64,000 nucleotides of DNA from Vicinamibacterales bacterium (GTDB lineage Bacteria > Acidobacteriota > Vicinamibacteria > Vicinamibacterales > UBA8438): assembly GCA_965208535.1 (NCBI GenBank), contig CBDBOU010000002.1, forward strand, positions 2,179,701 through 2,243,700, written 5' to 3'. Shown one piece after another: positions 6,510 to 33,245 of the stretch (the stretch's first letter is position 1; every line of letters begins with the position of its first letter). The position numbers and the translations under genes were made by a program. Below the pieces are notes generated by a model. It worked only from the letters and a program-made list of their open reading frames with translations, was not told the DNA's origin and made no database searches.

Positions 6510-6538
6510 GGGAACGCGACGAAATGATGAATCGGCGT

Positions 6539-8977: not shown

Positions 8978-9210
8978 TTTGGTTGGGGGAGCCAGAGTTG
9001 GCGGTTTGTAGACGGGCAGGGTCGAATCTGCGGGCGAAATCGGCGTGCCGGTACCAAGTGTTGCACTACTCGGTGCCGGAGGGCTGGTTAGATGCGGAAT
9101 CCGGCTGTTTGGTTCCGGGTGAGCCGAAAAAAAGTGTCTCGGAGCTTTTCCATGCCTTTGCTGTGGGTCCCGGTCGGACGGGCCTTGTGTGGACTCCGGT
9201 CCTGCTCTTG

Positions 9211-9358
9211 TGGGGTCGGTACGCTCGGTGAGCCGGGGCCGGTACTTCTCGGTGTCGTTCTCTGCTGGTGGGACACTCGGCGAGTGCTGGCGTCTTCACT
9301 GTCCCGCTCGACGGTTTCGGGAATGTTCCCTGGGATTCTGGGGCCGGTATTCTCGGCG
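9211..9358 (+). repeat. Iteron-like ~20-nt direct repeats
   Basis: u1 is TGGGGTCGGTACGCTCGGTG (9211-9230). u2 is CGGGGCCGGTACTTCTCGGTG (9234-9254). u3 is TGGGGCCGGTATTCTCGGCG (9339-9358). A degenerate copy, TGGTGGGACACTCGGCG, lies at 9266-9282. All are in the same orientation in apparently non-coding DNA. Confidence 0.6.
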
Positions 9359-9520
9359 ATGTCTGCCGGGATTGTCCGCTCGGCGGGTCGTCGTGGTGAG
9401 GATCGTCCTGGGCCGCGTGCGTTCCGTCAGTTGCTGTGCGCTCGGCGGTTACGGGTGGTACGTGCGGCTCGGCGCCTGCGCGCGCTGGGCGGGTGTGTCG
9501 CAGCGAGAACTGGTCGAGAG

Positions 9521-9937
9521 TCAGCGGATGGCGAGGAGTGGTCCGTCCGGATGCCGTGGTGTCAGCCTACGGTTCTTGCAGTCTGCGATCAGGTCGAGCG
9601 CCTCGAGCACCAGCTGGCCGATCAGTACCTCGCTGTTCGGGACCCCGATGATGGCTTCGGTGCGTGTCGAGAGGTTTCCGATCTCGATCGTGACGTCCGT
9701 CACGGGCCGTTCTTCGCGTTGCTCGTTCGCGTAGATGACTGTCCTGGTGCCCCACTGCCGCAGGCCCAGCTCGGTTGCGATCTCTTCGGGGATCACGAGG
9801 CTCACTGCTCCGGTGTCGACGACGCCTTCGATTGTTGTTCGGCGGATGTCCGTCTGGGTGCCGTAGCCGCGGTCGACGACCGCTCGGTCGTCTCTGTTTT
9901 CCAGCGTGACGCTCTGTCGAATCTCTCCCATGTTCAT
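9521..9937 (-). CDS. Stand-alone retropepsin-like (clan AA) aspartic protease
   Basis: The catalytic-type motif VVDTGAVSLVIPEE (D-T-G-A) sits in a protein of about 135 aa, with a later IIGVPNSEVLIG.. segment, as in retroviral-type protease monomers. A GGAG lies upstream of the ATGs at 9937 and 9931. Confidence 0.7.
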   Translation of the reverse strand: MNMGEIRQSVTLENRDDRAVVDRGYGTQTDIRRTTIEGVVDTGAVSLVIPEEIATELGLRQWGTRTVIYANEQREERPVTDVTIEIGNLSTRTEAIIGVPNSEVLIGQLVLEALDLIADCKNRRLTPRHPDGPLLAIR

Positions 9938-10552
9938 GGTTCTCCGATTGTGATGCATCCGGACGCGCGGGTCCAACCCTGCTCGGCGCGTGCGGGCTGG
10001 GTGTTCTTCTTGGCGCCAGCAGCGCTCGTTGCGCTTCGGTTGGATGTTGCGCTCGGCGCAAACGTTCGCTCGACGGGCTCGTTCAGGATGTACTGCTCGG
10101 CGCAGGTGGTGGCGGGCCGGGTCGTCGCTTGGTGTTTTCGGTCACCGGGCCTGTTCCTGCGATGAGCGCGACATGCTGCCGTTTCGGGCGGCGTCCGCCG
10201 GGGGCGGGGCGTCTGGTTGACGTGGCCCTTGTGGAATACGCGCATCCTCTCGACGCCTTCTTGAAGTTGTACCGTTCGGCGCCAGCGGCGTTTCCGGGGG
10301 ACTTCTCGGCTCGGTGGCGGGCGCGCTGTTCTTCCCTAGTCCCTGAAGCGGTCCAGGACGAGCTACAGGCGCGTTCCCAGTCTTACGACGGTCTGTTCGT
10401 CGCCTACGCTGGACGGCTGCTGAGGCGGCGTCTGACGGGTTCTGGCACACGCTCTGTTCTGCGTCGTCGTCGTCGCCGGCGGGTTCGCTGCGCTCTGTGC
10501 GTTCCGATCGGGTCTTGCGCTCGGCGCGTGTCTTCGCTCGGCGCCTGCGTGG

Positions 10553-11026
10553 TCAGTGAACAGTCTCGGCGGGTTCGACGATCTCGATGGATGCGGCGAG
10601 GCGTTCGATCGTTGTCCAGTCGACCCCTTGCGGCGTGAGCTTGTCGCGTTCGTCATCGGGGACCGATTCGCCGACCAGCCGGGCCGTGCGCAAGATCAGT
10701 GCCGCGCAGACGGTCATCGGCCCGCCGGGGAAGTCGGTTCTCGAGAACGGGAAGTGCAGCTTGCGGAACGCTCGCCCTTCGTGGATGACGTGTTCCGTCC
10801 GCGCGATGGCCTTGCCGTCCATCCGGAGACGGTCGATGGCGTTCATGGTCTCTTCGGTCGGATCGATTCGAGGCGGCGCCGACTCTTCTCTCTCGTCGGC
10901 CTCGGTCGGGTACGGAGAGAAGGCTTCCATCAGCGCGACCAGTATCGTGTCGAGGACGGGGACGTCCTTCTCGGTGAGTGCTTGCGGCATGTCGGTTGCT
11001 CGGTCTCTCGGCGCGTCCTGCTTCAC
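10553..11026 (-). CDS. Hypothetical protein
   Basis: Protein-like sequence with no recognised motif (..MNAIDRLRMDGKAIARTEHVIHEGRAFRKLHFPFSRTDFPGGPMTVCAALILR..). The start is uncertain: GTG at 11026 or ATG at 10990. Confidence 0.5.
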   Translation of the reverse strand: MKQDAPRDRATDMPQALTEKDVPVLDTILVALMEAFSPYPTEADEREESAPPRIDPTEETMNAIDRLRMDGKAIARTEHVIHEGRAFRKLHFPFSRTDFPGGPMTVCAALILRTARLVGESVPDDERDKLTPQGVDWTTIERLAASIEIVEPAETVH

Positions 11027-11056
11027 GGTTCCGGTGACGCCGTGCTGTTCAGAAGA

Positions 11057-11515
11057 TTAGAGCGGACTGCGCGTGCCGGCCACCCGGCCGCGGTGCTGCT
11101 GTCGCCGACCCCGCTCCTTGTGCCTGCCGGTCTGTGCCCTTCTCCAGCAGCTCCTTGAGCTTCGACCAGCGCCTGCGCCCGGTGACGTTGCGGACTGCGA
11201 TGGCGACGGCCTTCTTCTGACCGACCAGCAGGACGAGCTTTTTCCGCGGGTCACCGCGGTGCAGAGCAGGTTCCGCTGCAGCATCGTGTAGTGCCGGGTG
11301 AGCTCCGGGATGACCACGGCCGGGTACTCCGAACCCTGGCTCTTGTGGAGGGTGGCGGAGTACGCGAGCACGACGTCGTCGAGCTCGCCGAAGGGTAGAC
11401 GTGCTCTGCGCCGTGGAACCGAGTGGTCAGGCGTTGTCTGCGCCGCCCAGCCGCGGTGACACGTTCTCGGCAGCGTCGTGCCGTTAGTGTCTCTATAACC
11501 GTGTTGCCTGGGTTC
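11057..11515 (-). pseudogene. Decayed duplicate of the recD2 3' end (last ~150 codons)
   Basis: The nucleotide sequence aligns by eye at roughly 85 percent identity to 12454-12905. Fragments read [63 protein letters not shown] and RWSKLKELL in three different frames, which implies at least two frameshifts. Confidence 0.8.
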
Positions 11516-11795
11516 ACGGTGCCCGAAGGACTCGCTGTTGGCTTGACGTCGTCGGGCTTTGGACCTGTGCGGGGCGCGGGATGTCATCCGGCCACGTCAA
11601 CGACTCTGGCCAGTGCTCGGACAGGAACCGAAGGGCCCGGTCTGCGCGCCGGGTCGTGATGGCGTGACCGCGCCGCAGTCGTGTGATGGTTTCGCCGCTG
11701 CCGGTCGCGTGGCGTGAAATCGTCGAGACACTGCGTCCCGTCTGTTCAGCGAGGGTTTCGCACAGCGTCACGAGTCGCCGAACCGTTTCGTCCAT
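11514..11795 (-). CDS. Small HTH DNA-binding protein
   Basis: [44 protein letters not shown].. has an HTH-like segment. It is divergent from the 11896 gene. Confidence 0.5.
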
Positions 11796-11895
11796 GGTCC
11801 GGGAGCATGGCACGCATGGAGAGTCGAGCGCAAAGCGGGCAGACACGTAGTGCTGTGGCTCACTCGAAATCCTGGAGCCCACGTCCGGCGCTTTC

Positions 11896-12339
11896 TTGAT
11901 GTTTGGTAACGTGTGCGGAATGCCGCGAGTTCAGCCTGTTGAGTATCTGCGAGGGCTCGTGCGTCAGCGCATTGCGCAGGAAGGCTTGCGACCCTTCTCG
12001 CGGCGCACGGGCATCCCGCTGGGGCAGTTGCGGAGCCTTGCCGAGGGCCGGGCGGTCCGGAGCACGCGCTTGGAGTCGATTGCCGCTGTCCTGGATCTCG
12101 AGTTCTACATCGGCCCGCCGCGGTTGGATTGTACCGTGCGGCACCGGTTGCCCCCTGAGCTCGCGCAAGCTCTCGGTCTGCGCGGAGACGCCACCGTCGC
12201 GGAAGCTGTGGCCGCGATCGACAAGGACGTTTTGGCGTCCCGCCTGCGCGAGGGGCTCAGCATGTTGCGGGATCTACTCGGTAGCGATTCTGTGCACCGT
12301 CGCGATGCTCCCCTGGTGTCGCGGACTGAACCTCGTTGA
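11896..12339 (+). CDS. XRE/cI-like HTH regulator
   Basis: LRPFSRRTGIPLGQLRSLAEGRAVRSTRLESIAAVLDLEFYIG fits a Cro/CI-type HTH pattern. The start is ambiguous (11896 or the internal Met, residue 9 of the track ORF). Confidence 0.55.
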   Translation: MMFGNVCGMPRVQPVEYLRGLVRQRIAQEGLRPFSRRTGIPLGQLRSLAEGRAVRSTRLESIAAVLDLEFYIGPPRLDCTVRHRLPPELAQALGLRGDATVAEAVAAIDKDVLASRLREGLSMLRDLLGSDSVHRRDAPLVSRTEPR

Positions 12340-12453
12340 GCCTGAGGTCTGTCTGACGCTGCTGGTGTTCGAGCTGGCCGGTTTCCCGGCGTCGGGCGTG
12401 GAACGATCTGGAGTTCGTGGCTGGCGGGGGCCGGGCGTTCGGTGTTCTCGTCG

Positions 12454-14721
12454 TTAAGGTCGCCCTCGACGTGTTTCCTGCATTGTCGCATTGCGCTTTG
12501 CCGTTCCCGTACGTGCGCTGTAACGGTCTGCGAAGTCTTGCAGCCATTCGTTGAGCTTCGACCACCGCTTGCGTTCGGTGACGTTGCGGACCGCGATGGC
12601 GACGGCCTTCTTCTGGCCGACGAGGACCACGAGGCGCTTTCCGCGGGTCACCGCGGTGTAGAGCAGGTTGCGCTGCAGCATCGTGTAGTGCTGGGTGAGC
12701 ACCGGGACGACCACGGCCGGGTACTCCGACCCCTGGCTCTTGTGGACGGTGGCGGCATAGGCGAGCACCAAGTCGTCGAGCTCGCCGAAGGCGTAGACGT
12801 GCTCGGCGCCGTGGAACCGGGCGGTCAGCTGCTCGTCGTCCGTGTTCACCTCGGTGACGTTCCCGGTGTCGCCGTTGTAGACGTCCTTGCGGTAGTCGTT
12901 GACGGTCTGCATGACCTTGTCGCCGGGGGCGAAGGTCTGGCCGAAGCGCTCGACCTTGCGCTCGCGGGGCGGGTTCAGCGCCGCCTGGAGCGCGACGTTC
13001 AGCGCCCTGGCGCCGGCGCCGCCCCGGCTCATTGGGCACAGGACCTGGATGTCGCGGAGCGGGTCGAGGCCGAAGCGCTGCGGTATCCGCGTCTTCACCA
13101 GATCGACGATCCGCTCGGTGGCCTTCTCGGGCTCTTCGGCGCGGACGAAGTAGAAGTCGGTGTCGCCGGCGGGCGGGCGCAGGTCGGGGATCGCCCCGCG
13201 GTTGATGCCGTGCGCGTTGGTCACGATGCGGCTCCGCGCCGCCTGGCGGAAGACCTCGGTCAGCCGTATTACGGGGACGGTGTCCGATGCGATCAGGTCG
13301 GCGAGTACCTGTCCGGGTCCCACCGACGGGAGTTGGTCGGTGTCGCCCACGATCAGCAGCGCCGCGGTGTCGGGGACGGCGGTCAGCAACGAGCGCATCA
13401 GCCTGACGTCGACCATCGAGGTCTCGTCGACGACCAGCAGGTCGCAGTCGAGCGGGTTGGCCGCGTCGCGCTTGAAGCGCCCGGTGGCCGGGTCGGTCTC
13501 GAGCAGCCGGTGGATCGTGCACGCCTCCATCGCGGTGGCCTCGGTCATCCTGCGAGCGGCGCGGCCGGTCGGGGCGCACAGCTGCAGCCTGACGCCGGTG
13601 GTCTCGAGGATGCGCAGGACGGTGTCGATCAGCGTCGTCTTGCCCACGCCGGGTCCGCCGGTGACGATGGCGACCTTCGAGGCCAGCGCCAGCCGCACCG
13701 CTTCGTACTGCTGCGGCGCCAGCGACAGGCCGGTCTGCTTGCCGGCGCGCCGGATCGCCTGCTCGACGTCGAAGTCCGGCCAGAGGGGCGCTCCGGTTGC
13801 GAGGCTGGTGAGCCTGTCGGCGATCTCGTGCTCGGCGCCGTGCAGCTCTGCGAGGAACGCGCACGGCGCGCCGGCCACGGTGTCGGCGACGACGGCGCCT
13901 TCGGCCAGCTCGTGCTCGAGCGCGGTCAGGACCAGGCCTTCGGGCACCTCGAGCAGCTCGGCGGCCAGCGGGCGGAGCTCGTCAACGGGCAGTCCGCAGT
14001 GTCCCTTCTTCGTCGCCTCGTCGAGCGCGTAGCCGATGCCGGCGCGCACCCGCGTCATGGCGGTCTTGCTGATGCCCAGCTTCATGGCGATCTCGTCGGC
14101 GAGCTTGAAGCCGATCCCGCGGATGTCGCGCGCGAGCCGGTAGGGGTTGCTGCTTATGACCTCGACGGCGTCGTTCCCGTAGGTCTTCAGGATCCGTACC
14201 GCGCGTGCGGTGCCGGCGCCGTGCTCGTGGAGGAACACCATGATCTCGCGCACGGCCTTCTGCTCGGCCCACGCGTTGGTGATGCTCCCGGCGCGTTTCG
14301 GGCCGATGCCCGGGACCTCGCGGAGCTTGTCCGGCTCGGCGTCGATGACGTCGAGGACCTTGTCGCCGAAGGCTTCGACGAGCTTGTGCGCGTAGGTGCG
14401 GCCGATGCCGCGGATCATGCCCGAGCGCAGGTACTTCTCGATGCCGTGGGTCGACGACGGCGCGGAGCTGCGCAGGAAGCGGGCGTTGAACTGCCGGCCG
14501 TAGGTCGGGTGCTCCCTCCAGTAGCCGGTGGCGGTCAGCCACTCGCCCTCCGTGATGGCGGCGGTTGTGCCGATGATGGTTACCTGGTCGCGGTGTCCGC
14601 GGGCGTCGACCTGCAGCACGCAGAAGCCGGTGTCCTCGTTGCGGTAGCTGATGCGCTGGATCGTGCCGGCGAGCACCTCGCCGTCATTGTCGCGGCGCGT
14701 TGCTGTCTTCTGGGCGTGCAT
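12454..14721 (-). CDS. recD2: RecD2-type (RecD/TraA family) ATP-dependent DNA helicase
   Basis: 755 aa. There is an N-terminal OB/HhH region (VPGIGPKRA, IRGIGFKLAD). Walker A is VTGGPGVGKTT. Other helicase motifs are LLVVDETSMVD, IVGDTDQLPSVGPG, and C-terminal [15 protein letters not shown] / YTAVTRGK. Confidence 0.9.
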   Translation of the reverse strand: MHAQKTATRRDNDGEVLAGTIQRISYRNEDTGFCVLQVDARGHRDQVTIIGTTAAITEGEWLTATGYWREHPTYGRQFNARFLRSSAPSSTHGIEKYLRSGMIRGIGRTYAHKLVEAFGDKVLDVIDAEPDKLREVPGIGPKRAGSITNAWAEQKAVREIMVFLHEHGAGTARAVRILKTYGNDAVEVISSNPYRLARDIRGIGFKLADEIAMKLGISKTAMTRVRAGIGYALDEATKKGHCGLPVDELRPLAAELLEVPEGLVLTALEHELAEGAVVADTVAGAPCAFLAELHGAEHEIADRLTSLATGAPLWPDFDVEQAIRRAGKQTGLSLAPQQYEAVRLALASKVAIVTGGPGVGKTTLIDTVLRILETTGVRLQLCAPTGRAARRMTEATAMEACTIHRLLETDPATGRFKRDAANPLDCDLLVVDETSMVDVRLMRSLLTAVPDTAALLIVGDTDQLPSVGPGQVLADLIASDTVPVIRLTEVFRQAARSRIVTNAHGINRGAIPDLRPPAGDTDFYFVRAEEPEKATERIVDLVKTRIPQRFGLDPLRDIQVLCPMSRGGAGARALNVALQAALNPPRERKVERFGQTFAPGDKVMQTVNDYRKDVYNGDTGNVTEVNTDDEQLTARFHGAEHVYAFGELDDLVLAYAATVHKSQGSEYPAVVVPVLTQHYTMLQRNLLYTAVTRGKRLVVLVGQKKAVAIAVRNVTERKRWSKLNEWLQDFADRYSARTGTAKRNATMQETRRGRP

Positions 14722-14941: not shown

Positions 14942-15499
14942 TCAAGACGAGAAGATGTCGTCCACGTGGAGTTCGAGGCCGACGAGGAGCGGCGAGCGCA
15001 GAGTCTCTTGCCGGCGGAAGCTCTTGGTGGGCGCCAGCACGCCCCCGTGTTGGCGATGGATCGAGACGGTCTCGGCGATCGGGTCGACCAGCCAGTACTC
15101 CGTGACACCGTGTCTGCCGTAGAGGTCGCGCTTGGCCCCGCGGTCTGTGTCTGCTGATGAGGGAGACAGGATCTCGATCACTAGGTCGGGTGCGCCCCGC
15201 ACCTTCTGGCCGTCGCTCAGCAGGTGCTCGCGTTCCCGGGAGACGAACAACAGATCGGGCTGCACGACGTCGGTATTGGACAGGAACACGTCGCAGGGCG
15301 CGTAGAAGAGTTCGCCTAGGTCGCGTTCCTGGATGAACTGGTTCAGTTTCTGACCGAGGTTGCGCTGAACCCTCTGGTGCTTGAGATTCGGGGCGGCAAT
15401 CATGATCAGATGACCGTCGAGCAGCTCGTAGCGCTCGTCCTCCGGCGTGGTGAGGTAGTCCTCGTAAGTGAACCTGACGGCGGGTTGCGTGCTCGCCAC
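14942..15499 (-). CDS. Uma2-family (DUF820) PD-(D/E)xK-like endonuclease
   Basis: YELLDGHLIMIAAPNLKHQ.., VVQPDLLFVS and PDLVIEILSPSSADTDRGAKRDLYGRHGVTEYWLVDP match the Uma2 pattern. Confidence 0.85.
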   Translation of the reverse strand: MASTQPAVRFTYEDYLTTPEDERYELLDGHLIMIAAPNLKHQRVQRNLGQKLNQFIQERDLGELFYAPCDVFLSNTDVVQPDLLFVSREREHLLSDGQKVRGAPDLVIEILSPSSADTDRGAKRDLYGRHGVTEYWLVDPIAETVSIHRQHGGVLAPTKSFRRQETLRSPLLVGLELHVDDIFSS

Positions 15500-15694: not shown

Positions 15695-15925
15695 TCAGCT
15701 TGCCGTGTGCTGCTTCATCATAGCCAGGGTCACCAGGCGCCCCAGGGCGTCGGATCGGCATTCGTGTCTCTGACGGTCGTGGAGGCCCTTCAGGGCGTGC
15801 ATCTTTCCGGTGTTCCAGAACGCGCCGTCCTTCCACGCGCGGGCCAGGATCAGCTCGTCGAGCCGGATCTCGACCATATCGTCTCCGCGGGGGAGCAGGG
15901 TCACCGTGGTTGGTTCGCTGTTCAT
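15695..15925 (-). CDS. Small hypothetical protein (76 aa)
   Basis: MNSEPTTVTLLPRGDDMVEIRLDELILARAWKDGAFWNTGKMHALKGLHDRQRHE.. A GGAG lies 7 nt upstream of the ATG at 15925. It is directly downstream of pnkp. Confidence 0.5.
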   Translation of the reverse strand: MNSEPTTVTLLPRGDDMVEIRLDELILARAWKDGAFWNTGKMHALKGLHDRQRHECRSDALGRLVTLAMMKQHTAS

Positions 15926-15983
15926 GTGTGTCTCCATTCCCCCGATCCGGGGGTGGGTGTGGGCGGGTTCCGCGCTCGGCGCG

Positions 15984-18909
15984 TCAGAGCCTCGGGTCGA
16001 TCGGCTCGGCCTCGAGCGCGAGGATGGCGAACACGGCGCGGTGGACGTTGCGGAGCGGCGCCTTGGCGACGAACTGTTCCAGCGCCTCGATGCCGAGCGC
16101 GAACTCGCGCAGCGCCAGCGTCATCTTGCGGCCGGTGTTGCGGCGGCGCAGCCGCTCAAGCTGGTCGGGCGCCGTGTACTCGGGACCGTAGATGATCCGC
16201 AGGTACTCGCGTCCGCGGCACTTCAGCGCCGGGGCGGCTACGCCCCGCTCGGTGCGGGTGATGAAGTCCGCGGGCTTGACGACCATGCCTTCCGAGCCGC
16301 TTTCCGTTCGCTCGGTCCACCAGGCCGTGGCTTCGGCCACTTCGCTGTCGTCGTCGACATCGACCTCGCGGTGTTCGGTGGTGGTGAGGATGCCGTCGGC
16401 GCCGCATATGCGTTGGGCCAGTTCCATGTGCCAGCGGTGCGGCTTGTCGGCGTGTACGGCGCCTTCGGTCGCCAGCACGTGGAACGGCGCGACCTTCAGG
16501 CCTTCGATACCTTCGACGGGCCAGCTGTAGCGCCGATAGGCTTCGTCGTAGCAGGCGGTGAGCGCGGCGCGCTGTCTGAAGCGGTCGAGCAGGCCGGAGA
16601 TCTCGATGTCTCTGTCAGCCGCCTGCCGCAGTGCGGCCGTCGCCTCGCGGAGTCCCGTCCGCGCCGCGTCGCCCGCCGGCTCGTAGTGGTTGCGGATGAG
16701 TCCGCCGCCCTTGGCGGACCACGGCATGATCTCGGTGTCGATGACGGCCCAGGCGGTGTCGAGCGTGGACCATATCCGGGCATAGTCGAGTCCGGCCCGG
16801 ACCTGGTCGAGCACCTGCCGTTCGATGCCGGCGTCGTCGAAGAAGCGGCGTCCCGTGCGCGTGTGGATGATGCCGCCGTTGTCGTTGCGTACGCCGAATC
16901 GCTCCTCGGCGGCCGCGGCGTCCCGGCCGAGCACGATGATGGCCCGCGACCCCATGTGCTTCTCCTCGCACATGACGCGGCGGATGCCCCGGGCGCGGAA
17001 GTACCCGAACGCCTCTGCCGGGTGCTCGAGCAGCCCCTCGACGGTCGCCGAGGCGCACGGGGCCACGGTCGGCGGCAGGTAGACGAGCCAGCGCGGGTCG
17101 ACGGCGAATCGCGCCATCGTCTCGAGCGCGGCCGCGCAGTTCTCCGGGCGGACCGATACGCTTCCGGCGATGCGCGTGTGCAGCCGCAACGGTCCGGCGA
17201 CGTCGTCGAGGTCGAGCAGCGCGTCGCTCTCCTGCTGGCGGGTGGGGCCGGTGGTCGACCGCAGCGCCGCGGCCAGCGTCTCGGGCGGCTTGGCCCAGGC
17301 GCGTTCCGCCGGTACGGACACCAGCTCGCGCTCCGGCCAGCGCAGCGCGGTCAGGCGCCCGCCGAAGGCGCAGCCGGTGTCGATGCAGATCGTGTTGTTG
17401 ACCCACTCGGCGCGCCCGGCCGGCGTGTGGCCGTAGACCACGGCCGCGCGGCCGCGGTAGTCCTTTGCCCAGTCGAGCCGTAACGGCAGGCCCTCGGCGT
17501 CGGTCTCGCCCGTGGTCTCCCCGTAGAGGCCGAAGTCGCGTACCTGGCGCGAGGTGCGGTTCTGCAGCTCCTCCTTCATGCCGGCGTGGGCGACGACGAG
17601 CCTCCCGCCGTCGAGCACGTAGTGGCTCGGCAGCCGGTCGAGGAACTCCGCCACGCGCTTGCGGAACTCCTCGGGCGTCGCTTCGAGCTGCTCGAGCGTC
17701 TGCATCAGTCCGTGCTTGCGCTCGACGTTGCGGCCGGCGAGCGCGCGGGTTGCCGGGGATCGCCAGCGCGCTGCCGGTCTCGACCATGTCCATGACCAGC
17801 GCCAGGGCGCCGGCGCTGTCGGGGCCGCGGTCGACCAGGTCGCCGACGAACACGGCGGTGCGGCCCGCCGCCGGCGTGACGCGGTAGCCGGGGCCTGTGG
17901 CCGTGTCGTTGCGCTCGACGCGGTAGCCGAGCTTTCCTAGCAGCGTCTCGAGCTCGCCGCGGCAGGCGTGCACGTCGCCGACGATGTCGAACGGGCCCGT
18001 CAGGTCCCGGCGGTCGCAGTCGAGCGGCTCGCGGACGAGCTCGGCGCCGCGGGCGTCTTCGGGCGAGCGCAGGCGGTGGCGGCGCCGGAAGCCCTCGGCG
18101 GAGAGCTTCTTCATCCAGCGCTGCATCGAGCGCCACTGGCGGCGCACGGCATGTGGGGGACGCGCGTCGGCACCCCGGGCGGCGTTCTGTGCAAGGCAGT
18201 CGCGCTCGGTCAGGTCGAAGGCGATGGCCGTCAGCGGGGCGTGCTCGTCGCGCGCGAGCCGCACGTAGCGCTTGCGGTCGTCGGGCGAGACGTTGGTGGC
18301 GTCGATGACGGTGAGCCGCCGGGCGCGCAGGCGCCTGGTGGCGATCGCCTCGATGACGTCGAAGGCGTCCTTCGTCGTCGTGGCGTTGCGCTCGTCGTCG
18401 CCGACGACGCTGCGGTAGTGGTCCGAGGAGAGGACCTCGGAGGGGCGGAAGCAGCGCTGGGCGAACGTCGTCTTGCCCGACCCGCTGGGGCCGACGAGGA
18501 CGACGAGGCCGTAGTCGTGGATCTTCAGTTGCATCGGTGGAACGGTCCTGCTGCGGTCCTCGTTCGTGTTCACGTGGCGGAGCGGGCCGCGTGCAGCGCC
18601 GCATTCGCGCATGTATCCGACGGCTTCGGCTGCGGCGTCGGGATGGTTCGTCGAGACGGGTGTCACATCGGCCGGCGTGATGCCCGGCATCTTGCGGACG
18701 AGTCCGCCGAACACTTCTTCGAGCCACCCGCACGGGTACCCGAACTCGGCGTCTTCGAGCTCGACGCTGAGCGTCTGGCCGCGGGCCGCGGCTTCCCGCA
18801 CCTGCGGGATCAGCACGTCGTTGCGGAACTCCTCGCCCGAGCAGGCGCCCTGTTCGCGGTAGCGCGGTCCCGGGTGTCTGACGTCAGCGCGCAATCGTGT
18901 TTCCGTCAT
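15984..18909 (-). pseudogene. pnkp: Polynucleotide kinase-phosphatase/ligase Pnkp with N-terminal STAS-like (DUF4325-like) extension, interrupted near 17745
   Basis: The upstream frame (part of track ORF 16615..19275) reads MTETRLRADVRHPGPRYREQGACSGEEFRNDVLIPQV..FGYPCGWLEEVFGGLVRK (STAS-like). It continues as MQLKIHDYGLVVLVGPSGSGKTTF (the canonical Pnkp kinase N-terminus), GDVHAC and VFVGDLVDRGP..ALAIPGN. The rest (RALAGRNVERKHGLMQTLEQLE.., VVAHAG, VVYGHTP, and the ligase part with EEKHMGS, MVVKP) is in another frame (track ORF 15984..17705). The total length is not a multiple of 3. Confidence 0.8.
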
Positions 18910-19328
18910 TTCTTCGGGTTCGCGGCGTCTTCCGTTTCCGTGTTGGCCTCGAGGAACTCCTCGACGGTCTCGAACACCGGCGCGTTCCAGTCGAGCTGTT
19001 CCGCCAGCCGGTCGGCGAGGTCCTCGTCGTTGCCGATGCCGGGCCACGGCATGCCGGCGCTGTCGCGCAGCTGCAGCAGGAGGTAGCCGGCGCAGTGCTG
19101 GGTCTGCTCGCCGGAAACGTAGGTTTCCTCTCCGGTGAACGGGTTCTCGTCGCACTCGGGGGAGAGGTGACAGGGGAAGCCGTGGCGGTAGGCGTGTTCC
19201 TCGATCTCTTCGGCGCGCTCGCGCCCGCGGAACGTGATGCGGGTGTCGTCGGTCCGGAACGGGCAGTGCTTGCAAGGTTCCTTCAGGTCGAACGCATCGT
19301 CTTTTCCGTGTCGGCTCCGGGCCGTCAG
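18906..19328 (-). CDS. Cys/His-rich small protein between hen1 and pnkp (start codon unclear)
   Basis: ..DDAFDLKEPCKHCPFRTDDTRITFRGRERAEEIEEHAYRHGFPCHLSPECDENPF..QTQHCAGYLLLQ.. Its stop overlaps the pnkp ATG (ATGA at 18909-18906). There is no in-frame ATG, GTG or TTG after the hen1 stop. The only candidate start is a CTG overlapping the hen1 TGA (CTGA at 19328-19325). Confidence 0.55.
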   Translation of the reverse strand: MTARSRHGKDDAFDLKEPCKHCPFRTDDTRITFRGRERAEEIEEHAYRHGFPCHLSPECDENPFTGEETYVSGEQTQHCAGYLLLQLRDSAGMPWPGIGNDEDLADRLAEQLDWNAPVFETVEEFLEANTETEDAANPKK

Positions 19329-20680
19329 TCGCGGCGGTGGAACAGCGCCCGCTGGGTGGGTGCGCCCACCTCGGCGTCCTCGGGGCCGATCTCGCCGATC
19401 TCGACCCGGTACCCGTGGCGCTCGGCGGTCGCGCGGGCCCAGGTCCCGAACTCTTCGCGCGTCCACTCGAAGCGGTGGTCGCGGTGGCGCAGCTTCCCCG
19501 GCTCGAGGAACTCGAACCGCACGTTGTGCTCGCGGTTCGGCGTGGTCAGTGCGACCAGCGCGGGCCGGGCATGGCCGAACAGCGAACGCTCGAAGGCGTC
19601 GAGCCGTTCGGGGTCGATGTGCTCGACGACCTCGACGACGGCGGCCGCGTCGTACCCCGCGAGCCGTTCGTCGCGGTAGGTGAGCGCGGACTGGATCAGC
19701 CGGATGCGGCCGTCGCCGCTCTTTCTGCGGCGCTTGAGCTTCAGCCGGCGGTCGGCGATCTCGAGCGCGTGTACCGACGCGTCCGTGCCGGTGATCTCGG
19801 TGAACTCGGGCACGTCTGCGAGTCGGCGCAGCAGGCGGGCCTGGCCGCAGCCGATGTCGAGGATGCGCCTGGCGCCGGCCTTGCGGAACGTCCCGATGAC
19901 CCATTCGTGGCGCGCCTGGTGCAGGCTGACGCGCTCGGGGGGCTCGGTTTCTGCGTCGGCGTCGCCGTCCTCGGCGTCGTCGGGAACGCGCAGGCGCGCG
20001 GCGGCGTCGGCGGCCAGCGTGTGCCGGTGGCCGAGGTAGCGGCGGACGATGACGTCCTTCTGCGGGTGCTCCTCGAGCCAGCCCGCGCCGTGGGCGAGGA
20101 GTTTTTCGACCTCGGCCTCGCCGATCCAGTAGTGCTTGCGGTTGTCGGCGACGGGCAGCAGCACGTAGACGTGGTTGAGCAGCTCGGCGAGCGTCTTCGT
20201 CGCCCGCAGCCGCACGTTGCGGTAGCGCGGGCGCTCGTCGTCGGGGTCGGCCGTGGTCTCGACGTCGTAGCCGAGCGGTCCGAACAGGTCCTCGACCAGG
20301 GTCTCGGCGCCGCGGCAGGGGACCGCGGCCAGCGTCGCCTCGAGCGGGATCGGGGCACCGGCCAGCTCGGGGCGTTCCTTCGCGCGGCCGCTCATCGCGG
20401 TCCCGAACACGCGGGCCATCGCCACCGAGAGGAACGACGAGGAGACGTACGGCCGGTCGTTGACGTAGTCGGTGAGCACGGCGCCCGGGCCGCGGACCAG
20501 CTTCAGCGGGTCGATGTCGAGCAGGAGTGCGGCGGTGCAGCGCTCCGGCGTGGCCTCGGTGTAGAAGACGTGGGCGCTACCGAAGGCCAGCTCGAAGGTC
20601 TGCGCGCGGGCCGGGTTCTTGTGCAGCAGGTAGCCCAGGTCGGTCGCCGGGCGGTGCGTGGTGGAGATGGTCAGCAGCAT
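19325..20680 (-). CDS. hen1: Bacterial Hen1 3'-terminal RNA ribose 2'-O-methyltransferase
   Basis: MLLTISTTHRPATDLGYLLHKNPARAQTFELAFGSAHVFY is a characteristic bacterial Hen1 N-terminus. The SAM-methyltransferase motif ILDIGCGQARLL and VVEVVEHI are in the C-terminal half. Confidence 0.9.
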   Translation of the reverse strand: MLLTISTTHRPATDLGYLLHKNPARAQTFELAFGSAHVFYTEATPERCTAALLLDIDPLKLVRGPGAVLTDYVNDRPYVSSSFLSVAMARVFGTAMSGRAKERPELAGAPIPLEATLAAVPCRGAETLVEDLFGPLGYDVETTADPDDERPRYRNVRLRATKTLAELLNHVYVLLPVADNRKHYWIGEAEVEKLLAHGAGWLEEHPQKDVIVRRYLGHRHTLAADAAARLRVPDDAEDGDADAETEPPERVSLHQARHEWVIGTFRKAGARRILDIGCGQARLLRRLADVPEFTEITGTDASVHALEIADRRLKLKRRRKSGDGRIRLIQSALTYRDERLAGYDAAAVVEVVEHIDPERLDAFERSLFGHARPALVALTTPNREHNVRFEFLEPGKLRHRDHRFEWTREEFGTWARATAERHGYRVEIGEIGPEDAEVGAPTQRALFHRRD

Positions 20681-20717: not shown

Positions 20718-21251
20718 TCACGCCGGGTCCTTCCCGGCGCCGGGTTTGCCGTAGTGCGCCTCGTACTCCATGCGCAGCATGTTGTTCGGTGAACTCAGCG
20801 CGCGTACCAGGGCGCGTCCGGTCTCGCAGTTCGGGTTGTCGGCCGCCGTGGCGAGGTGTTCGACGACGGCGGGGTCGATGTCGAGGATACGCGCGATCTC
20901 CGCCCTGTGCGGGCCTTCGTGCAGGATGGCCGCGGCGGCGTACAGCGTGGCCTCGCGGTCGAGGCTCTCGGGCGCGGCGTCCGGGTCCTCCTCGTCGAGG
21001 TGCTCGCGGACGTGCTGCCGCTCGCGGTCCACCGCCTCGGCGAGCTTCCGGTGCTCCGGGTCCTGCAACAGCGCGTCGATACGGTCGCCGCGGTGGATCG
21101 TTGCGGTCGCCAGCGGGCACAGCCGCAGTTCCGGGTGGTTGTCGGTGTCCTCGATGGCGACGTACCGGATGCTGCCGAAGTACAGGCCCCAGCAGTAGTC
21201 GCGGAGCTCTTTCTTCAGCATCTCGATGGCCTTGCGGGTCGGTCCGGTCAT
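20718..21251 (-). CDS. Hypothetical protein, tandem paralog 1 (177 aa)
   Basis: MTGPTRKAIEMLKKEL..CPLATATIHRGDRIDALLQDPE..ATLYAAAA..GRALVRAL. It aligns along its full length with the 21274..21807 product. Confidence 0.65.
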   Translation of the reverse strand: MTGPTRKAIEMLKKELRDYCWGLYFGSIRYVAIEDTDNHPELRLCPLATATIHRGDRIDALLQDPEHRKLAEAVDRERQHVREHLDEEDPDAAPESLDREATLYAAAAILHEGPHRAEIARILDIDPAVVEHLATAADNPNCETGRALVRALSSPNNMLRMEYEAHYGKPGAGKDPA

Positions 21252-21273
21252 GACGGGTCTTTGCGGTCGCGGG

Positions 21274-21807
21274 TCATTCCGCGGCGTCGGGGTTGCCGTA
21301 GTACGTCTCGTACATGGCCCCCAGCCACTCCGAGGCCGGGTCCAGGGCGCGTATCAGCGCTCGGCCAGCTTCCGAGTGCGGGTCGTCGCTCGCGTCGACG
21401 AGGGCGGCGATGGTGTTCTCGTCCATCCGGAGGATCCGTTGCGTCACGACGTTGTGGGGGAAGGTGTCCACGAAGGCCGCGGCGGCGTGCAGCGTCGCGT
21501 CGCGTTCCAGGTCCTCGGCGTGTTCCGGCGTGCGGTGGTGGTTCACCGCCTGGAGGTGTTCGCGGATTCCCGGGCGGACCGAGGCCACCCAGTCGGTGAA
21601 CTCCTGCTGCTCCGGGTCCTGCAGGAGCTCGAGCATCCGGTCGCCCTGCTCGTACGCCGCCATGGCGAGCGGGCAGATCGTCCGTTCGCCGTGTCCATGG
21701 GTATCCTCGAGAGAAGTGCACACGATGCGTCCGCGGTTAAGTTCCCACGGGTGCATGTCGAGTTGCTTCCCCAGTGTTTCGATGGCCTTGCGGGTCTGTC
21801 CGGTCAT
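21274..21807 (-). CDS. Hypothetical protein, tandem paralog 2 (177 aa)
   Basis: MTGQTRKAIETLGKQL..CPLAMAAYEQGDRMLELLQDPE..ATLHAAAA..GRALIRAL. It has the same length as its neighbour and shares those sequence blocks. Confidence 0.65.
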   Translation of the reverse strand: MTGQTRKAIETLGKQLDMHPWELNRGRIVCTSLEDTHGHGERTICPLAMAAYEQGDRMLELLQDPEQQEFTDWVASVRPGIREHLQAVNHHRTPEHAEDLERDATLHAAAAFVDTFPHNVVTQRILRMDENTIAALVDASDDPHSEAGRALIRALDPASEWLGAMYETYYGNPDAAE

Positions 21808-21870
21808 GTGCGTCCTCTGGTGTGGTGCGTGTGGTCGGGTTTGTTGCGGCGCTCGGGGGCGACGCTTCGG

Positions 21871-22653
21871 CTACTCGTTCGTTTCGACGCTGATTTCGAC
21901 GGCGTCGACTCCCGGGTGCTTGACGACGCGTACCGTGCTTCGGTCGGGGATCAGGTGTGCGACGCGGTGCTGGATGGAATAGCGGAGCTTCTCGTCTCTG
22001 GCGGCGGTTTTGTCGAGCAGTAGATCGCACGCCGCGTAGTACGCGTTTTCCCGGGAGTCCTTCAGCTGGGTTTCGAACGAGTCGTCGTTCTCGTCGCCGC
22101 CGGGTTCGAAGACCGCGTCGTGGATGAGGACACTCAGCTCGTCGATGTCGAGCCTGCTGCCGGCGCCGAGAAGGACGCCTGCGGTCGTCGCGTCGGACTC
22201 GTACTCGTCGGCGACGGCGAAGTCGGTGGGAAGCTTCAGTGTCCGCGTGTCGTTGTCGTCGTTGCCGCGCTGCAGGACGGCGTGGACCGTGATGGCGTCG
22301 ACCGACGCGTGGTTGTTGTAGTCGTCCACCCCGTTCCGCGGGCATTCGAGCGTGACGGTCTTGCCGTCCAGCCGGTACTCGATGCGCATGGCGACGATCC
22401 GTTCGAGACCGTCGTGCCAGGGCGTCCGCTCGCTGAGCGGTACCGGGTCGAACAGCCGCTTGGCGAGACCGTTCCGCTCGGCGGCCCGGTGGAGCGTCAC
22501 CCGGTCGCGGTTCTCCGGCAGGCCGCCCAGTGCGACGAGGATCGGCGGGTCGCCGATGGCGGCCGTCGTGTCGAACGTCTCGAAGACTTCTTCTTCGCGG
22601 TTCCAGCTTCGCGGGCGCCACCGGCGCAGGCTTGCGGGTGCGGTTGCGTTCAT
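21871..22653 (-). CDS. Hypothetical protein (260 aa, acidic)
   Basis: Coding-like composition with no recognised motif. Its start overlaps the stop of the upstream gene by 4 nt (22653/22656). Confidence 0.6.
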   Translation of the reverse strand: MNATAPASLRRWRPRSWNREEEVFETFDTTAAIGDPPILVALGGLPENRDRVTLHRAAERNGLAKRLFDPVPLSERTPWHDGLERIVAMRIEYRLDGKTVTLECPRNGVDDYNNHASVDAITVHAVLQRGNDDNDTRTLKLPTDFAVADEYESDATTAGVLLGAGSRLDIDELSVLIHDAVFEPGGDENDDSFETQLKDSRENAYYAACDLLLDKTAARDEKLRYSIQHRVAHLIPDRSTVRVVKHPGVDAVEISVETNE

Positions 22654-22655
22654 CG

Positions 22656-23201
22656 TCAGGCTCCTCGTGTGTCGTGGCGCAGTTCCGACCAGAGCGGATA
22701 TGCGCGAGCGTGGAACGGCATCAGGTAGGCGAGTGCGGGCGCGGTCGCGTCCTCTCCGGTCCAGACGCCGATGGGCATCTTCGCGTCGTTGTTGCCGGGG
22801 TCGGCCGCGCGCCAGATCGTTCCCGTTCGCCGGTGGCGCCAGAGGACGTAGGCGGCGATGTCGGCGGGGAGGACCAAGCTGTCGATCAGCCAGAAGAGTG
22901 GTCGTCCCATTACGAGCGACCAGCCCAGGGGCCTTTGCACGGGCGAGTTCCGCACGTTGCCGATCCAGGGCGTGCTCTTTGTGTCGATGCAGTGGAAGGG
23001 CTCGGCGTCGTCCGGCTCCGGCGGTTTCCGGTGCAGGAACATGTTGCTCCCGTCGTGGCTGTAGCGCGTCGTCCCGCAGACCTGGATCGTCCGCGGGCAG
23101 TCCGGGCGGGGGACCGCGACCGGAGTGAAGCCGTCGAACGGACGCGGCCTCATCTCGTCGAGCGTGGCGACGAGGTCGCGCCAGGATGCGGGTTCACGCA
23201 T
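22656..23201 (-). CDS. Hypothetical protein (181 aa)
   Basis: Trp-rich and protein-like. It overlaps the upstream gene by 8 nt (23194/23201). Confidence 0.6.
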   Translation of the reverse strand: MREPASWRDLVATLDEMRPRPFDGFTPVAVPRPDCPRTIQVCGTTRYSHDGSNMFLHRKPPEPDDAEPFHCIDTKSTPWIGNVRNSPVQRPLGWSLVMGRPLFWLIDSLVLPADIAAYVLWRHRRTGTIWRAADPGNNDAKMPIGVWTGEDATAPALAYLMPFHARAYPLWSELRHDTRGA

Positions 23202-23883
23202 TCTCGTCCTCGTCCCTGTCGACTGGCGCGAGCACCAGCACGTGGCTGTGCCATTTGCTCAGGATCCAGTGGCCCCACATCGCCCAGCCGCCGTAGACCG
23301 TTCCGCACAACGCCGCCAGTCCGATGTCGACGGCAGGGTGCAGTCCGGTCGGCGTCAGCAGCGATCCGGCCGCGGTTGCGGCTGCCGTCACGATCCCCGC
23401 GGCCGCGCGGGTGGTCCGGTGGTGGAACGCCGGGTACCGCGGCGCGTGTGCGCCGACCACCTCGATGATGCTCGCGATGGTCGCGCGGCGCCATGCGCCG
23501 TCCCTGCTCGTCACGCTCAGCCGTGTGTGTCCGTCGCAGGCGTGCATGCGGATGGCGTCGTCGTCGACCGCCGCCAGGCGGCGCGTTGCACTCAGCGACC
23601 AGTCGCGGCTGCGCACCGGCTCGTTCAGCCCGTCGAGGTCGCTCTCGTCGATCCGCACCGTCTCGCGGTTCCGCCGATTCCACGTTGCGGAGAACGTCAC
23701 GCGCGGTTCGTCCAAGCCGTGCCGGTCCGGGACCCGCGTGCCGTCGGCGCTTTCCATCGCCGTCCGCGCGGCGTCGCACAGCGCGTCCAGCGCGGCGCGG
23801 TCGACGCGTACCGGCGGCAGCTTCACCTCCGCCGTGGTCACTCCGCTTTCGTTCCGGGCCTTTTCGCCCTGTGTCGTCGTCAT
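23194..23883 (-). CDS. Hypothetical membrane protein (C-terminal hydrophobic helices)
   Basis: The C-terminus AAAGIVTAAATAAGSLLTPTGLHPAVDIGLAALCGTVYGGWAMWGHWIL suggests two transmembrane segments. Confidence 0.6.
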   Translation of the reverse strand: MTTTQGEKARNESGVTTAEVKLPPVRVDRAALDALCDAARTAMESADGTRVPDRHGLDEPRVTFSATWNRRNRETVRIDESDLDGLNEPVRSRDWSLSATRRLAAVDDDAIRMHACDGHTRLSVTSRDGAWRRATIASIIEVVGAHAPRYPAFHHRTTRAAAGIVTAAATAAGSLLTPTGLHPAVDIGLAALCGTVYGGWAMWGHWILSKWHSHVLVLAPVDRDEDENA

Positions 23884-33242: not shown

Positions 33243-33245
33243 CGC

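What the first reader, a model, noticed from the sequence alone, without database searches (positions are those of the whole stretch)
15984..20680. Expanded Hen1 / Pnkp RNA-repair cassette with a Cys-rich ORF wedged between the two genes and a STAS-like domain fused to the Pnkp N-terminus
The described bacterial RNA repair system (Clostridium thermocellum and Anabaena Pnkp/Hen1) is, as I recall it, a two-gene cassette. Pnkp heals and seals broken RNA ends, and Hen1 2'-O-methylates the junction.

Here the order is hen1 (19325-20680), a 140-codon Cys/His-rich ORF (18906-19328), then pnkp. All three are stitched together by 4-nt overlaps (CTGA and ATGA).

The pnkp reading frame does not start at the canonical MQLKIHDYGLVVLVGPSGSGKT. 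It starts 125 codons earlier, at 18909, with a module reading GPRYREQGACSGEEFRNDVLIPQV..LEDAEFGYPCGWLEEVFGGLVRK. I recognise this as a STAS-like / DUF4325-type domain, and there is no stop between it and the kinase domain.

The cassette is the distal part of a 25-kb one-directional array in a mobile-element-like island, next to a Uma2 nuclease. A sensor-like domain and a zinc-binding partner added to an RNA end-healing, sealing and methylating machine would be a four-module variant that I have not seen described. It could be a ribotoxin-countering or conflict system.
Basis: partly seen in the sequence, partly recalled or inferred. Interest (0 to 1): 0.75.

Follow-up and report, generated by a model that had tools for sequence, protein, structure and literature searches.

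The report
Broken Hen1–Pnkp RNA-repair operon with two inserted genes
This is a damaged copy of a known bacterial RNA-repair operon (Hen1 plus Pnkp) that, in one group of soil Acidobacteria, carries two extra small genes between the two enzymes; the apparent fusion of a sensor-like domain to Pnkp comes from a one-base insertion, not from a designed four-part enzyme.

Summary
hen1 (19325-20680, minus strand) is intact.

The "stitching" does not hold up.
- The Cys-rich gene has no start codon in its own frame. Its real ATG (19297) is put out of frame by a 1-nt deletion at codon 3.
- The STAS-like module is a separate 110-176 aa gene with its own stop in every intact relative. Here an extra T (18603) removes that stop, so the frame runs into pnkp.
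- pnkp is itself broken. A 17-nt deletion near 17749 removes the His of the phosphatase GNH motif and shifts the frame.

The nearest relative (98% identical) shares the extra T, carries a stop codon inside the STAS-like gene, and has an intact pnkp. No intact fusion was found anywhere.

Intact relatives, probably Vicinamibacterales (Acidobacteriota), carry a four-gene operon: hen1, DUF6283-like, DUF4325-like, pnkp. Both small genes are under purifying selection in those relatives.

Genes between hen1 and pnkp are common: 23 of 75 surveyed loci have more than 450 bp there, including RlaP, MazE/MazF and Thg1-like genes.

Verdict: a decayed copy of a lineage-specific variant of a known system. 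Interest is modest.

The parts
19325..20680 (-). hen1, intact (451 aa): N-terminal Pnkp-binding domain plus C-terminal RNA 3'-terminal 2'-O-methyltransferase
   Evidence: TIGR04074 626.7 bits over model positions 1-461 of 462. Pfam Hen1_L 328 bits. PDB matches to C. thermocellum and Anabaena Hen1 domains, E 1e-80 and 1e-61.
18906..19297 (-). DUF6283-like Cys/His-rich gene, frameshifted. The ATG is at 19297-19295. A 1-nt deletion (TTT to TT) lies at 19292/19291. The stop is at 18908-18906. Adding one T back gives a 130-aa protein.
   Evidence: Pfam DUF6283 22.5 bits, below the cutoff of 27. 287 homologues found; the aligned ones begin with M, mostly MRFDLKEPC. Indel seen against L002. Conserved CxxC...CH...HC pattern. 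dN/dS 0.21-0.45.
18570..18909 (-). STAS-like DUF4325-type gene. The ATG at 18909-18907 overlaps the upstream stop (ATGA). An extra T at 18603 shifts the last 9 codons and bypasses the ancestral TGA at 18572-18570.
   Evidence: Pfam DUF4325 17.7 bits, below the cutoff of 23. Relatives P0006, P0138, P0150 and P0151 pass the cutoff. Homologues are standalone proteins of 110-176 aa. DNA alignment shows the inserted T. Removing it restores ...MREAALHAARSAT*, identical to L001 and L088.
15984..18534 (-). pnkp pseudogene. The kinase and the N-terminal half of the phosphatase are in one frame (18534 to about 17749). The C-terminal half of the phosphatase and the ligase are in another frame (about 17747 to 15984). 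A 17-nt deletion at about 17749 removes the His of the GNH motif.
   Evidence: TIGR04075 positions 1-260 (313.9 bits) and 266-851 (873.8 bits) lie in different frames. PNKP_ligase 550.6 bits. Deletion seen against L002. tblastn of the L088 Pnkp matches residues 1-262 and 269-855 in different frames.
15695..15937 (-). Small conserved ORF (80 aa) downstream of pnkp, function unknown
   Evidence: 80% identical to the 76-aa gene that follows pnkp in L088.
14942..15499 (-). Uma2-family putative endonuclease
   Evidence: PF05685 136.1 bits. PADLOC candidate family PDC-S03, 138 bits.
12454..14721 (-). RecD2-like SF1 helicase, downstream of pnkp as in L001, L002, L003 and L088
   Evidence: Pfam OB_YrrC, HHH_RecD2, AAA_19/AAA_30, SH3_13 and UvrD_C_2. 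Synteny. 90.6% identical to the L088 orthologue in a single frame.
20718..23883 (-). Five conserved genes of unknown function upstream of hen1: two paralogous 177-aa genes (20718-21251 and 21274-21807), then 21871-22653, 22656-23201 and 23194-23883
   Evidence: No Pfam or PHROG hits. Four of them (20718-21251, 21871-22653, 22656-23201, 23194-23883) match L001 genes at 64-82% identity, each in one frame. 21274-21807 matches only as a 41%-identical paralogue of 20718-21251.

Best explanation
The window holds a defective copy of a lineage-specific variant of the bacterial Hen1-Pnkp RNA-repair operon.

The ancestral form is seen intact in related soil-metagenome contigs, probably Vicinamibacterales (Acidobacteriota). 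It has four separate co-directional genes: hen1, a ~125-aa DUF6283-like protein with conserved Cys and His residues that probably bind zinc, a ~112-aa STAS-like DUF4325 protein joined to it by an ATGA or GTGA overlap, and pnkp (855 aa).

In this window three of the four genes carry frame-breaking lesions:
- a 1-nt deletion at codon 3 of the DUF6283-like gene;
- a 1-nt insertion that removes the last 9 codons and the stop of the STAS-like gene, so that it reads in frame into pnkp;
- a 17-nt deletion in pnkp that removes the phosphate-binding His of the GNH motif and shifts the frame.

Only Hen1 can still be made whole. The longest product from 18909 would be 764 aa. It would contain STAS-like residues 1-103, a 22-aa read-through linker, the kinase, half of the phosphatase and about 376 out-of-frame residues. 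Healing, sealing and methylation of broken RNA by this copy is therefore presumably lost.

The gene order, the lesions and the conservation in relatives are shown by the data. The following is inference. In intact relatives Hen1 and Pnkp should work as in the characterised complex: kinase and phosphatase heal the ends, ligase seals them, and Hen1 2'-O-methylates the junction. The two small co-translated proteins probably act as accessory or regulatory subunits. My preferred guess, at about 30%, is that the STAS-like protein gates Pnkp and the zinc protein binds RNA or a partner protein.
For: Family assignments.

Lesions: each is defined against relatives. Single-base repairs restore full-length proteins identical or nearly identical to relatives.

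Intact relatives with separate genes: L088 has 458-128-112-855 aa, L090 has 464-127-176-855 aa, L089 has two extra genes, and L091 has a 123-aa STAS-like gene followed by an 855-aa pnkp. L001 has the same order.

Selection: dN/dS is 0.17-0.45 for both small genes.

The lesions are clustered. Proteins from L001 and L088 align to the window in single frames for hen1, RecD2, four upstream genes and the 76-aa ORF. Only the three adjacent genes are broken. Housekeeping genes at 42-64 kb give full-length Pfam matches.

The extra T is shared with an independent contig, L002, which differs by 1.8% overall (98.2% identity; 122 mismatches plus 54 gap positions in 9.7 kb).

CthPnkp Asn263 and His264 contact the scissile phosphate and were identified as essential by alanine scanning (PMC3675462).
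Against: - I could not look at reads, so some or all lesions could be assembly errors. TTT to TT is a typical homopolymer error. Related long-read metagenome contigs also show frameshifts: pnkp and RecD2 in L001, Uma2 and RecD2 in L002.
- hen1 is still intact, which is unexpected if the whole operon is under relaxed selection.
- Nothing here tests the function of the two small proteins. Foldseek gave no match for either model.
Confidence: 0.7

Rival explanations
1. The lesions are sequencing or assembly artefacts. The organism actually carries an intact four-gene operon (hen1, DUF6283-like, DUF4325-like, pnkp) with no fusion and no pseudogenes.
For: The deletion at 19292 is in a T homopolymer. 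Related contigs from low-coverage long-read metagenome assemblies also have frameshifts in otherwise conserved genes: pnkp in L001, L010, L032, L062 and L068, and Uma2 and RecD2 in L002. After single-base repair the window's genes show no other sign of decay.
Against: The extra T at 18603 is not in a homopolymer and is shared with L002, a separate contig that differs by 1.8% overall. A 17-nt deletion is not a typical consensus error. About 22 kb of housekeeping genes and the flanking island genes in the same window show no frameshift. L090, labelled 2x coverage, has four intact genes, which suggests accurate reads in this type of assembly.
Confidence: 0.2
2. This is the first reader's view: a genuine, functional STAS-Pnkp fusion with a zinc-binding partner, forming a four-module RNA-repair or conflict machine in this genome.
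For: The frame from 18909 through the kinase is open. The open frame needs two changes relative to L001 and L088: the extra T and a spacer shorter by 5 nt. Both are shared by the window and L002.
Against: No intact example exists. The window's pnkp is frameshifted 262 codons into Pnkp and lacks the GNH His. L002 has TGG to TAG at the invariant Trp62 of the STAS-like part. All 10 close homologues are standalone proteins of 110-176 aa. No hit covers both halves of a STAS-plus-kinase query. None of the top 150 profile hits is longer than 536 aa. Being in frame after two indels has a chance probability of about 1 in 3. The partner ORF has no usable start codon.
Confidence: 0.05
3. This rival concerns function and is independent of the options above. 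The two small genes are mobile-element cargo that landed in a permissive intergenic slot, and they have nothing to do with RNA repair.
For: Relatives of both genes sit in unrelated mobile-element contexts. The DUF6283-like gene lies next to ArdC-N/MPTase genes in L004-L006 and in another context in L007. It matches phage family phrog_5443. The next-closest DUF4325-like protein, P0133, lies next to Thy1 and a D12 methyltransferase. The hen1-pnkp slot holds many unrelated genes in other lineages, including ankyrin and HEAT repeat proteins, a histidine kinase and a transposase. L003 and L009 have only the DUF6283-like gene, and L091 has the DUF4325-like gene without a DUF6283-like gene immediately upstream.
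Against: The order hen1, DUF6283-like, DUF4325-like, pnkp, with a 4-nt start/stop overlap between the small genes, is kept across contigs whose small proteins are only 61-88% identical. dN/dS is below 0.5. The DUF4325-like subfamily was found almost only next to pnkp. Other occupants of the same slot are RNA-related: RlaP, MazE/MazF and Thg1-like.
Confidence: 0.4

Closest known systems
Bacterial Pnkp-Hen1 RNA repair system (Clostridium thermocellum, Anabaena variabilis)
   Same: The same two enzymes match at equivalog level (TIGR04074 and TIGR04075). They lie on the same strand with hen1 upstream of pnkp, as in all 75 surveyed loci that have both genes. PDB matches to the Cth and Ava Hen1 domains were found.
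   Different: About 790 nt carrying two extra small genes lie between hen1 and pnkp. In this window pnkp is split by a 17-nt deletion and lacks the GNH His. The literature describes the two genes as always in the same operon (PMC4411300). Accessory genes between them are not discussed in the papers I could read.
RlaP-containing RNA-repair operons (PF10127; Burroughs & Aravind 2016, as cited in PMC12776372)
   Same: This is a precedent for accessory genes placed inside RNA-ligase repair operons. I found two tandem RlaP genes between hen1 and pnkp in L018, L021, L028, L044 and L068.
   Different: The accessory genes here are a DUF6283-like Cys/His-rich protein and a STAS-like DUF4325 protein, not nucleotidyltransferases. 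No enzymatic function is predicted for either.
Pnkp1-Rnl-Hen1 three-protein complex (Capnocytophaga gingivalis)
   Same: It is a variant RNA-repair system with more than two proteins and a Hen1 methyltransferase (PMC4411300).
   Different: In that system the kinase-phosphatase and the ligase are split into two functional proteins, and hen1 is encoded elsewhere. Here the split of pnkp is a frameshift inside the phosphatase domain, not a domain boundary. Hen1 matches 4xrp only weakly (E 9e-9).
STAS-domain partner-switching proteins (SpoIIAA, RsbV)
   Same: Pfam labels DUF4325 as STAS-like. The model is a small alternating beta-alpha protein. That SpoIIAA and RsbV act by partner switching is from my own knowledge, not tested here.
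   Different: Foldseek returned no STAS structure (best E 0.11, to macro-domain proteins). No partner kinase or phosphatase gene is adjacent. The resemblance is a lead only.

Membership tests
Bacterial Hen1 (TIGR04074) | Full-length match above the curated cutoff, with an N-terminal Pnkp-associating domain and a C-terminal methyltransferase | tested here: met
   626.7 bits against a cutoff of 340, covering model positions 1-461 of 462. Hen1_L 328 bits plus methyltransferase domains.
Bacterial Pnkp (TIGR04075) | A single polypeptide of about 850 aa with kinase, phosphatase and ligase in one reading frame | tested here: not met
   Model positions 1-260 and 266-851 lie in different frames. A 17-nt deletion is seen against L002. 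Intact relatives have 855-857 aa.
Bacterial Pnkp (TIGR04075) | Phosphatase GNH(E/D) motif; in CthPnkp, Asn263 and His264 contact the scissile phosphate | tested here: not met
   The window reads ...IPGN|PRA..., and the sequence encoding HDAKLA is deleted. The role of these residues comes from PMC3675462.
Bacterial Pnkp (TIGR04075) | P-loop kinase domain and C-terminal adenylyltransferase (ligase) domain present | tested here: met
   AAA_33 102.8 bits and PNKP_ligase 550.6 bits over positions 1-377 of 377.
Pfam DUF4325 (STAS-like) | Score at or above the Pfam gathering threshold (23 bits) | tested here: inconclusive
   The window scores 17.7 bits and P0001 18.3 bits, both below the cutoff. Relatives P0006 (26.5), P0138 (28.2), P0150 (40.9) and P0151 (30.5) pass it. 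The family link is therefore credible through relatives.
Pfam DUF4325 (STAS-like) | STAS-type fold | tested here: inconclusive
   The AlphaFold model has pLDDT 80.6 and a beta-alpha-beta-alpha-beta-alpha order. The Foldseek search of the PDB gave no match with E below 0.1 and no STAS protein in the list.
Pfam DUF6283 | Score at or above the Pfam gathering threshold (27 bits) | tested here: not met
   The window scores 22.5 bits. 57 of 119 relatives match at E<=1e-3, with a best E of 6e-6. It is best described as a DUF6283-like sister group. The conserved pattern is C9, C12, C43-H44 and H68-C69.
   The genes are separate in L001, L088, L089, L090 and L091. No hit covers both parts. The two contigs with the open frame each carry an inactivating lesion.

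The most novel reading that the evidence does not exclude
In the intact relatives (L088, L090, L001, L089) the Hen1-Pnkp operon may have recruited a zinc-binding DUF6283-like protein and a STAS-like DUF4325 protein from mobile elements as dedicated subunits. They could act, for example, as a switch that holds the kinase or ligase inactive until RNA damage or a ribotoxin is sensed. More generally, the hen1-pnkp junction may be a conserved accessory slot where lineage-specific RNA-damage modules are plugged in: MazE/MazF in cyanobacteria, tandem RlaP, and a Thg1-like enzyme with a kinase. That would point to the still-unknown natural triggers of this repair system.
Probability: 0.25. Interest if true: 0.55.

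Novelty: new variant of a known kind. Interest (0 to 1): 0.3.

Why it matters
The in vivo role and the triggers of Pnkp-Hen1 RNA repair are still unknown. Accessory genes that sit between the two enzymes are the most direct genomic clue to them. If the DUF6283-like and DUF4325-like pair, or the MazE/MazF, RlaP and Thg1-like inserts seen in other lineages, prove to be functionally linked, they would name candidate regulators and candidate sources of damage.

For this window the practical message is a caution. In high-GC DNA an open frame across a gene boundary, or a "4-nt overlap", can arise from a single indel. The specific four-module fusion proposed for this window is not real.

Tried and rejected
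- Foldseek of both AlphaFold models against the PDB, and of the DUF6283-like model against BFVD. No match had E below 0.1, so no functional lead came from fold.
- PADLOC gave no hit for either small protein. NCBIfam gave no hit for the Cys-rich ORF.
- A JGI metagenome scan with the DUF4325-like alignment returned one distant locus, L094, which had no hen1, pnkp or small-gene HMM hits.
- Looking up the window's own Hen1 to identify the source contig and its coverage: not on record.
- Burroughs & Aravind 2016 (NAR 44:8525) could not be read by DOI or by PMC5062991. I cannot say whether that survey already lists these neighbours.
- Literature searches for DUF6283 or DUF4325 found three papers, each mentioning DUF4325 once and none mentioning DUF6283; I did not open them. 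The search for Hen1 + Pnkp + MazF found three papers; I did not check how any of them uses the MazF term.
- A CTG start for the Cys-rich ORF was rejected. The aligned relatives start with ATG 30-64 nt after the hen1 stop, and the window keeps that ATG out of frame.
- Programmed frameshifting was rejected. The three sites share no common motif, and relatives encode the same proteins in single frames.
- I looked for an integrase to define the island. I found only an rve transposase (2622-3806), a DDE transposase (28367-30214) and a tRNA-Thr at the boundary. No tyrosine or serine recombinase was found among the ORFs tested.

Full report
**What is at the coordinates**

All genes discussed here are on the minus strand.

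hen1 (19325-20680, 451 aa) is intact. It matches TIGR04074 end to end (626.7 bits, cutoff 340). It has the Hen1_L and methyltransferase domains. It also matches solved Hen1 domains from C. thermocellum and Anabaena.

Downstream there is a Cys/His-rich open frame ending at 18906. It gives a weak DUF6283 match (22.5 bits, cutoff 27). Next comes an ORF starting at the ATG at 18909, which overlaps that stop as ATGA. Its first ~100 residues give a weak DUF4325 (STAS-like) match (17.7 bits, cutoff 23). The frame then runs without a stop into MQLKIHDYG..., the start of the Pnkp kinase (ATG 18534).

*1. The Cys-rich frame has no start codon.* The proposed 'CTGA' overlap needs a CTG start. No ATG, GTG or TTG lies in that frame anywhere near it. 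All 14 aligned homologues begin with M, and 11 of them with MRFDL. The window has ATG CGT TCG at 19297, where the 98%-identical contig L002 has ATG CGT TTC. One T of a TTT run is missing at 19292, so the real ATG is out of frame.

*2. pnkp is not one reading frame.* TIGR04075 positions 1-260 lie in the frame that starts at 18534. Positions 266-851 lie in a different frame, 17756-15984. Against L002 the window lacks 17 nt, CCACGACGCCAAGCTCG, so GNHDAKLARAL becomes GN|P.... In CthPnkp, Asn263 and His264 of this motif contact the scissile phosphate and were identified as essential by alanine scanning (PMC3675462).

*3. The STAS-kinase fusion comes from one extra base.*
- The 10 close homologues of the N-terminal module are standalone proteins of 110-176 aa ending ...GYMREAALHAARSAT*.
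- The window reads GAA T GCG GCG CTG CAC.... Removing the T at 18603 restores exactly that C-terminus and the stop TGA at 18572-18570.
- The window and L002 share this T and a spacer shorter by 5 nt. Together these put the upstream frame in register with pnkp.
- L002 also has TGG to TAG at the invariant Trp62 of the STAS-like gene. Neither contig therefore encodes an intact fusion.

**Search for real fusions**

- A profile of the STAS-like subfamily was searched against 1.84 billion representative proteins. It gave 977 hits. Most of the top 150 are 100-180 aa, and none exceeds 536 aa.
- A query spanning the STAS-like part, the linker and the kinase found no protein covering more than 58% of it.
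- One caveat applies. Clustering can hide rare variants behind a representative that lacks the extension.

**What the ancestral locus looks like**

Contigs carrying close homologues show four separate genes:
- L088: hen1 458 aa, DUF6283-like 128 aa, DUF4325-like 112 aa, pnkp 855 aa, then a RecD2-like helicase.
- L090: 464, 127, 176 and 855 aa.
- L089: the same four genes, with two more small genes after hen1.
- L001: the same order.
- L091: a 123-aa DUF4325-like gene followed by an 855-aa pnkp.

The two small genes overlap by 4 nt in L001, L088, L089 and L090. The STAS-like gene always ends 4-338 nt before the pnkp ATG.

L003 (a 7.39-Mb circular contig) and L009 have only the DUF6283-like gene between hen1 and pnkp. 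L008 keeps a remnant of it.

Pairwise dN/dS is 0.21-0.45 for the DUF6283-like gene and 0.17-0.44 for the DUF4325-like gene. Both are therefore real genes under purifying selection.

The closest named genomes are Vicinamibacterales and Acidobacteria MAGs, with 78-80% Hen1 identity.

**Are the lesions real?**

I could not inspect reads.

Arguments for real decay:
- Proteins from L001 and L088 align to the window in single frames for hen1, RecD2, four upstream genes and a 76-aa ORF. Only three adjacent genes are broken.
- Ten housekeeping genes at 42-64 kb give full-length domain matches.
- The extra T is not in a homopolymer and is shared with a contig that differs by 1.8% overall (98.2% identity; 122 mismatches plus 54 gap positions in 9.7 kb).
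- A 17-nt deletion is not a typical consensus error.
- L090, labelled 2x coverage, has four intact genes.

Arguments for artefact:
- TTT to TT is a classic homopolymer error.
- Related long-read metagenome contigs also carry frameshifts.
- After repair the genes look fully conserved.

I put real, recent pseudogenisation at roughly two to one over artefact. Under either reading the fusion is not a designed architecture.

**Is a two-gene cassette the rule?**

I scanned one genome per GTDB species with a Hen1 methyltransferase alignment. It found 548 loci, and the best 80 were kept.
- hen1 lies upstream of pnkp on the same strand in all 75 loci that have both genes.
- The gap between them is at most 130 bp in 46 loci, 131-450 bp in 6 and more than 450 bp in 23.
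- The gaps hold two tandem RlaP nucleotidyltransferases in five loci. They hold a MazE-like gene in eight cyanobacterial loci, three of which also have a PemK/MazF toxin.
- One Aulosira locus holds a P-loop kinase plus a Thg1-like enzyme. Other gaps hold ankyrin or HEAT repeat proteins, a histidine kinase and a transposase.
- RlaP in RNA-ligase operons is already known (PMC12776372).
- The DUF6283-like gene occurred in only 2 of the 80 loci, and the DUF4325-like gene in none.

An intervening gene is therefore common, but this particular pair is rare and lineage-restricted.

**What the small proteins might do**

The DUF6283-like family keeps C9, C12, C43-H44 and H68-C69, which suggests zinc binding. 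The model is confident (pLDDT 88.6) but has no structural neighbour in the PDB or BFVD. Homologues at 53-67% identity sit in mobile-element contexts without hen1 or pnkp. The family matches phrog_5443.

The STAS-like model (pLDDT 80.6) is an alternating beta-alpha protein with no significant PDB match. Its next relative outside the operon lies beside Thy1 and a D12 methyltransferase.

Both genes therefore look like mobile-element genes recruited into the slot. I favour an accessory or regulatory role, at about 30%, over pure hitch-hiking, at about 40%. Neither was tested, and the remainder is undecided.

**Context**

The cassette lies in a co-directional minus-strand array from about 12.4 to 37.2 kb. 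The array contains Uma2, RecD2-like and UvrD-like helicases, a macro-domain protein, a DDE transposase and many unknown genes. A tRNA-Thr at 41970-42045 separates this region from the housekeeping genes uvrA, efp, uvrC, scpAB and rpsA. The 'island' description is plausible, but I did not define its ends.

**Verdict**

The gene content is right. The fusion and the overlap stitching are wrong, and the pnkp break was missed.

The locus is a defective copy of a new, narrow variant of a known system. Interest is 0.3.

Noticed in passing
L024, L035, L038, L049, L069, L071, L072, L081 (cyanobacterial genome loci), between hen1 and pnkp; for example L049:10672-11246: A MazE/AbrB-type antitoxin gene sits between hen1 and pnkp in eight cyanobacterial loci. 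Three of them (L038, L049, L072) also keep a PemK/MazF endoribonuclease toxin. This places a ribotoxin module inside an RNA-repair operon. A full-text search for Hen1 + Pnkp + MazF found three papers; I did not open the MazF passages to see whether the arrangement is described.
   Followed up: partly
L018, L021, L028, L044, L068, between hen1 and pnkp; for example L021:11132-12892: Two tandem paralogous RlaP (PF10127) nucleotidyltransferase genes lie between hen1 and pnkp in Longimicrobium, Acidobacteria and Armatimonadota MAGs.
   Followed up: partly
L080:10625-11825 (Aulosira sp. MAG): A P-loop kinase (AAA_33) and a Thg1-like tRNA-His guanylyltransferase family protein lie between hen1 and pnkp. 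This would add a 5'-end repair enzyme to the cassette.
   Followed up: partly
window 20718-21251 and 21274-21807 (-): Two tandem paralogous 177-aa genes lie immediately upstream of hen1. They are about 41% identical to each other. They are conserved upstream of hen1 in L001 and L088. They have no Pfam, PHROG or PADLOC match.
   Followed up: partly
window 41970-42045 (-): A tRNA-Thr (CGT) lies at the boundary between the minus-strand array of mostly unknown or mobile-type genes and the housekeeping block (uvrA, mpg, efp, uvrC, scpA/B, rluB, rpsA). It may be an island integration site. No integrase was identified.
   Followed up: partly
L002 (ENA ERZ24894577 ctg481033l), about 5228 and 6823: The window's closest relative has its own set of lesions: a 10-nt tandem duplication in Uma2, a +1 insertion in RecD2, a -1 deletion in the DUF6283-like gene and a nonsense codon in the DUF4325-like gene. 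Its pnkp is intact. The two strains have therefore lost different genes of the same island.
   Followed up: partly
L090:3106-3636 (P0009, 176 aa): This DUF4325-like protein carries a C-terminal extension with CxxC...CxxC (CNRCGQ...CDQC). That looks like a zinc ribbon added to the STAS-like module.
   Followed up: no
L010 (Vicinamibacterales MAG) 3990-7180 and 9146-13176: Two hen1-pnkp cassettes lie in tandem. The upstream one is fragmentary: a Hen1 C-terminal piece and a pnkp in three frames.
   Followed up: no
window 32778-33245 and 34417-36528 (-): A macro-domain protein and a UvrD-like helicase lie in the same co-directional array as the hen1-pnkp cassette. A DDE transposase lies at 28367-30214.
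   Followed up: no
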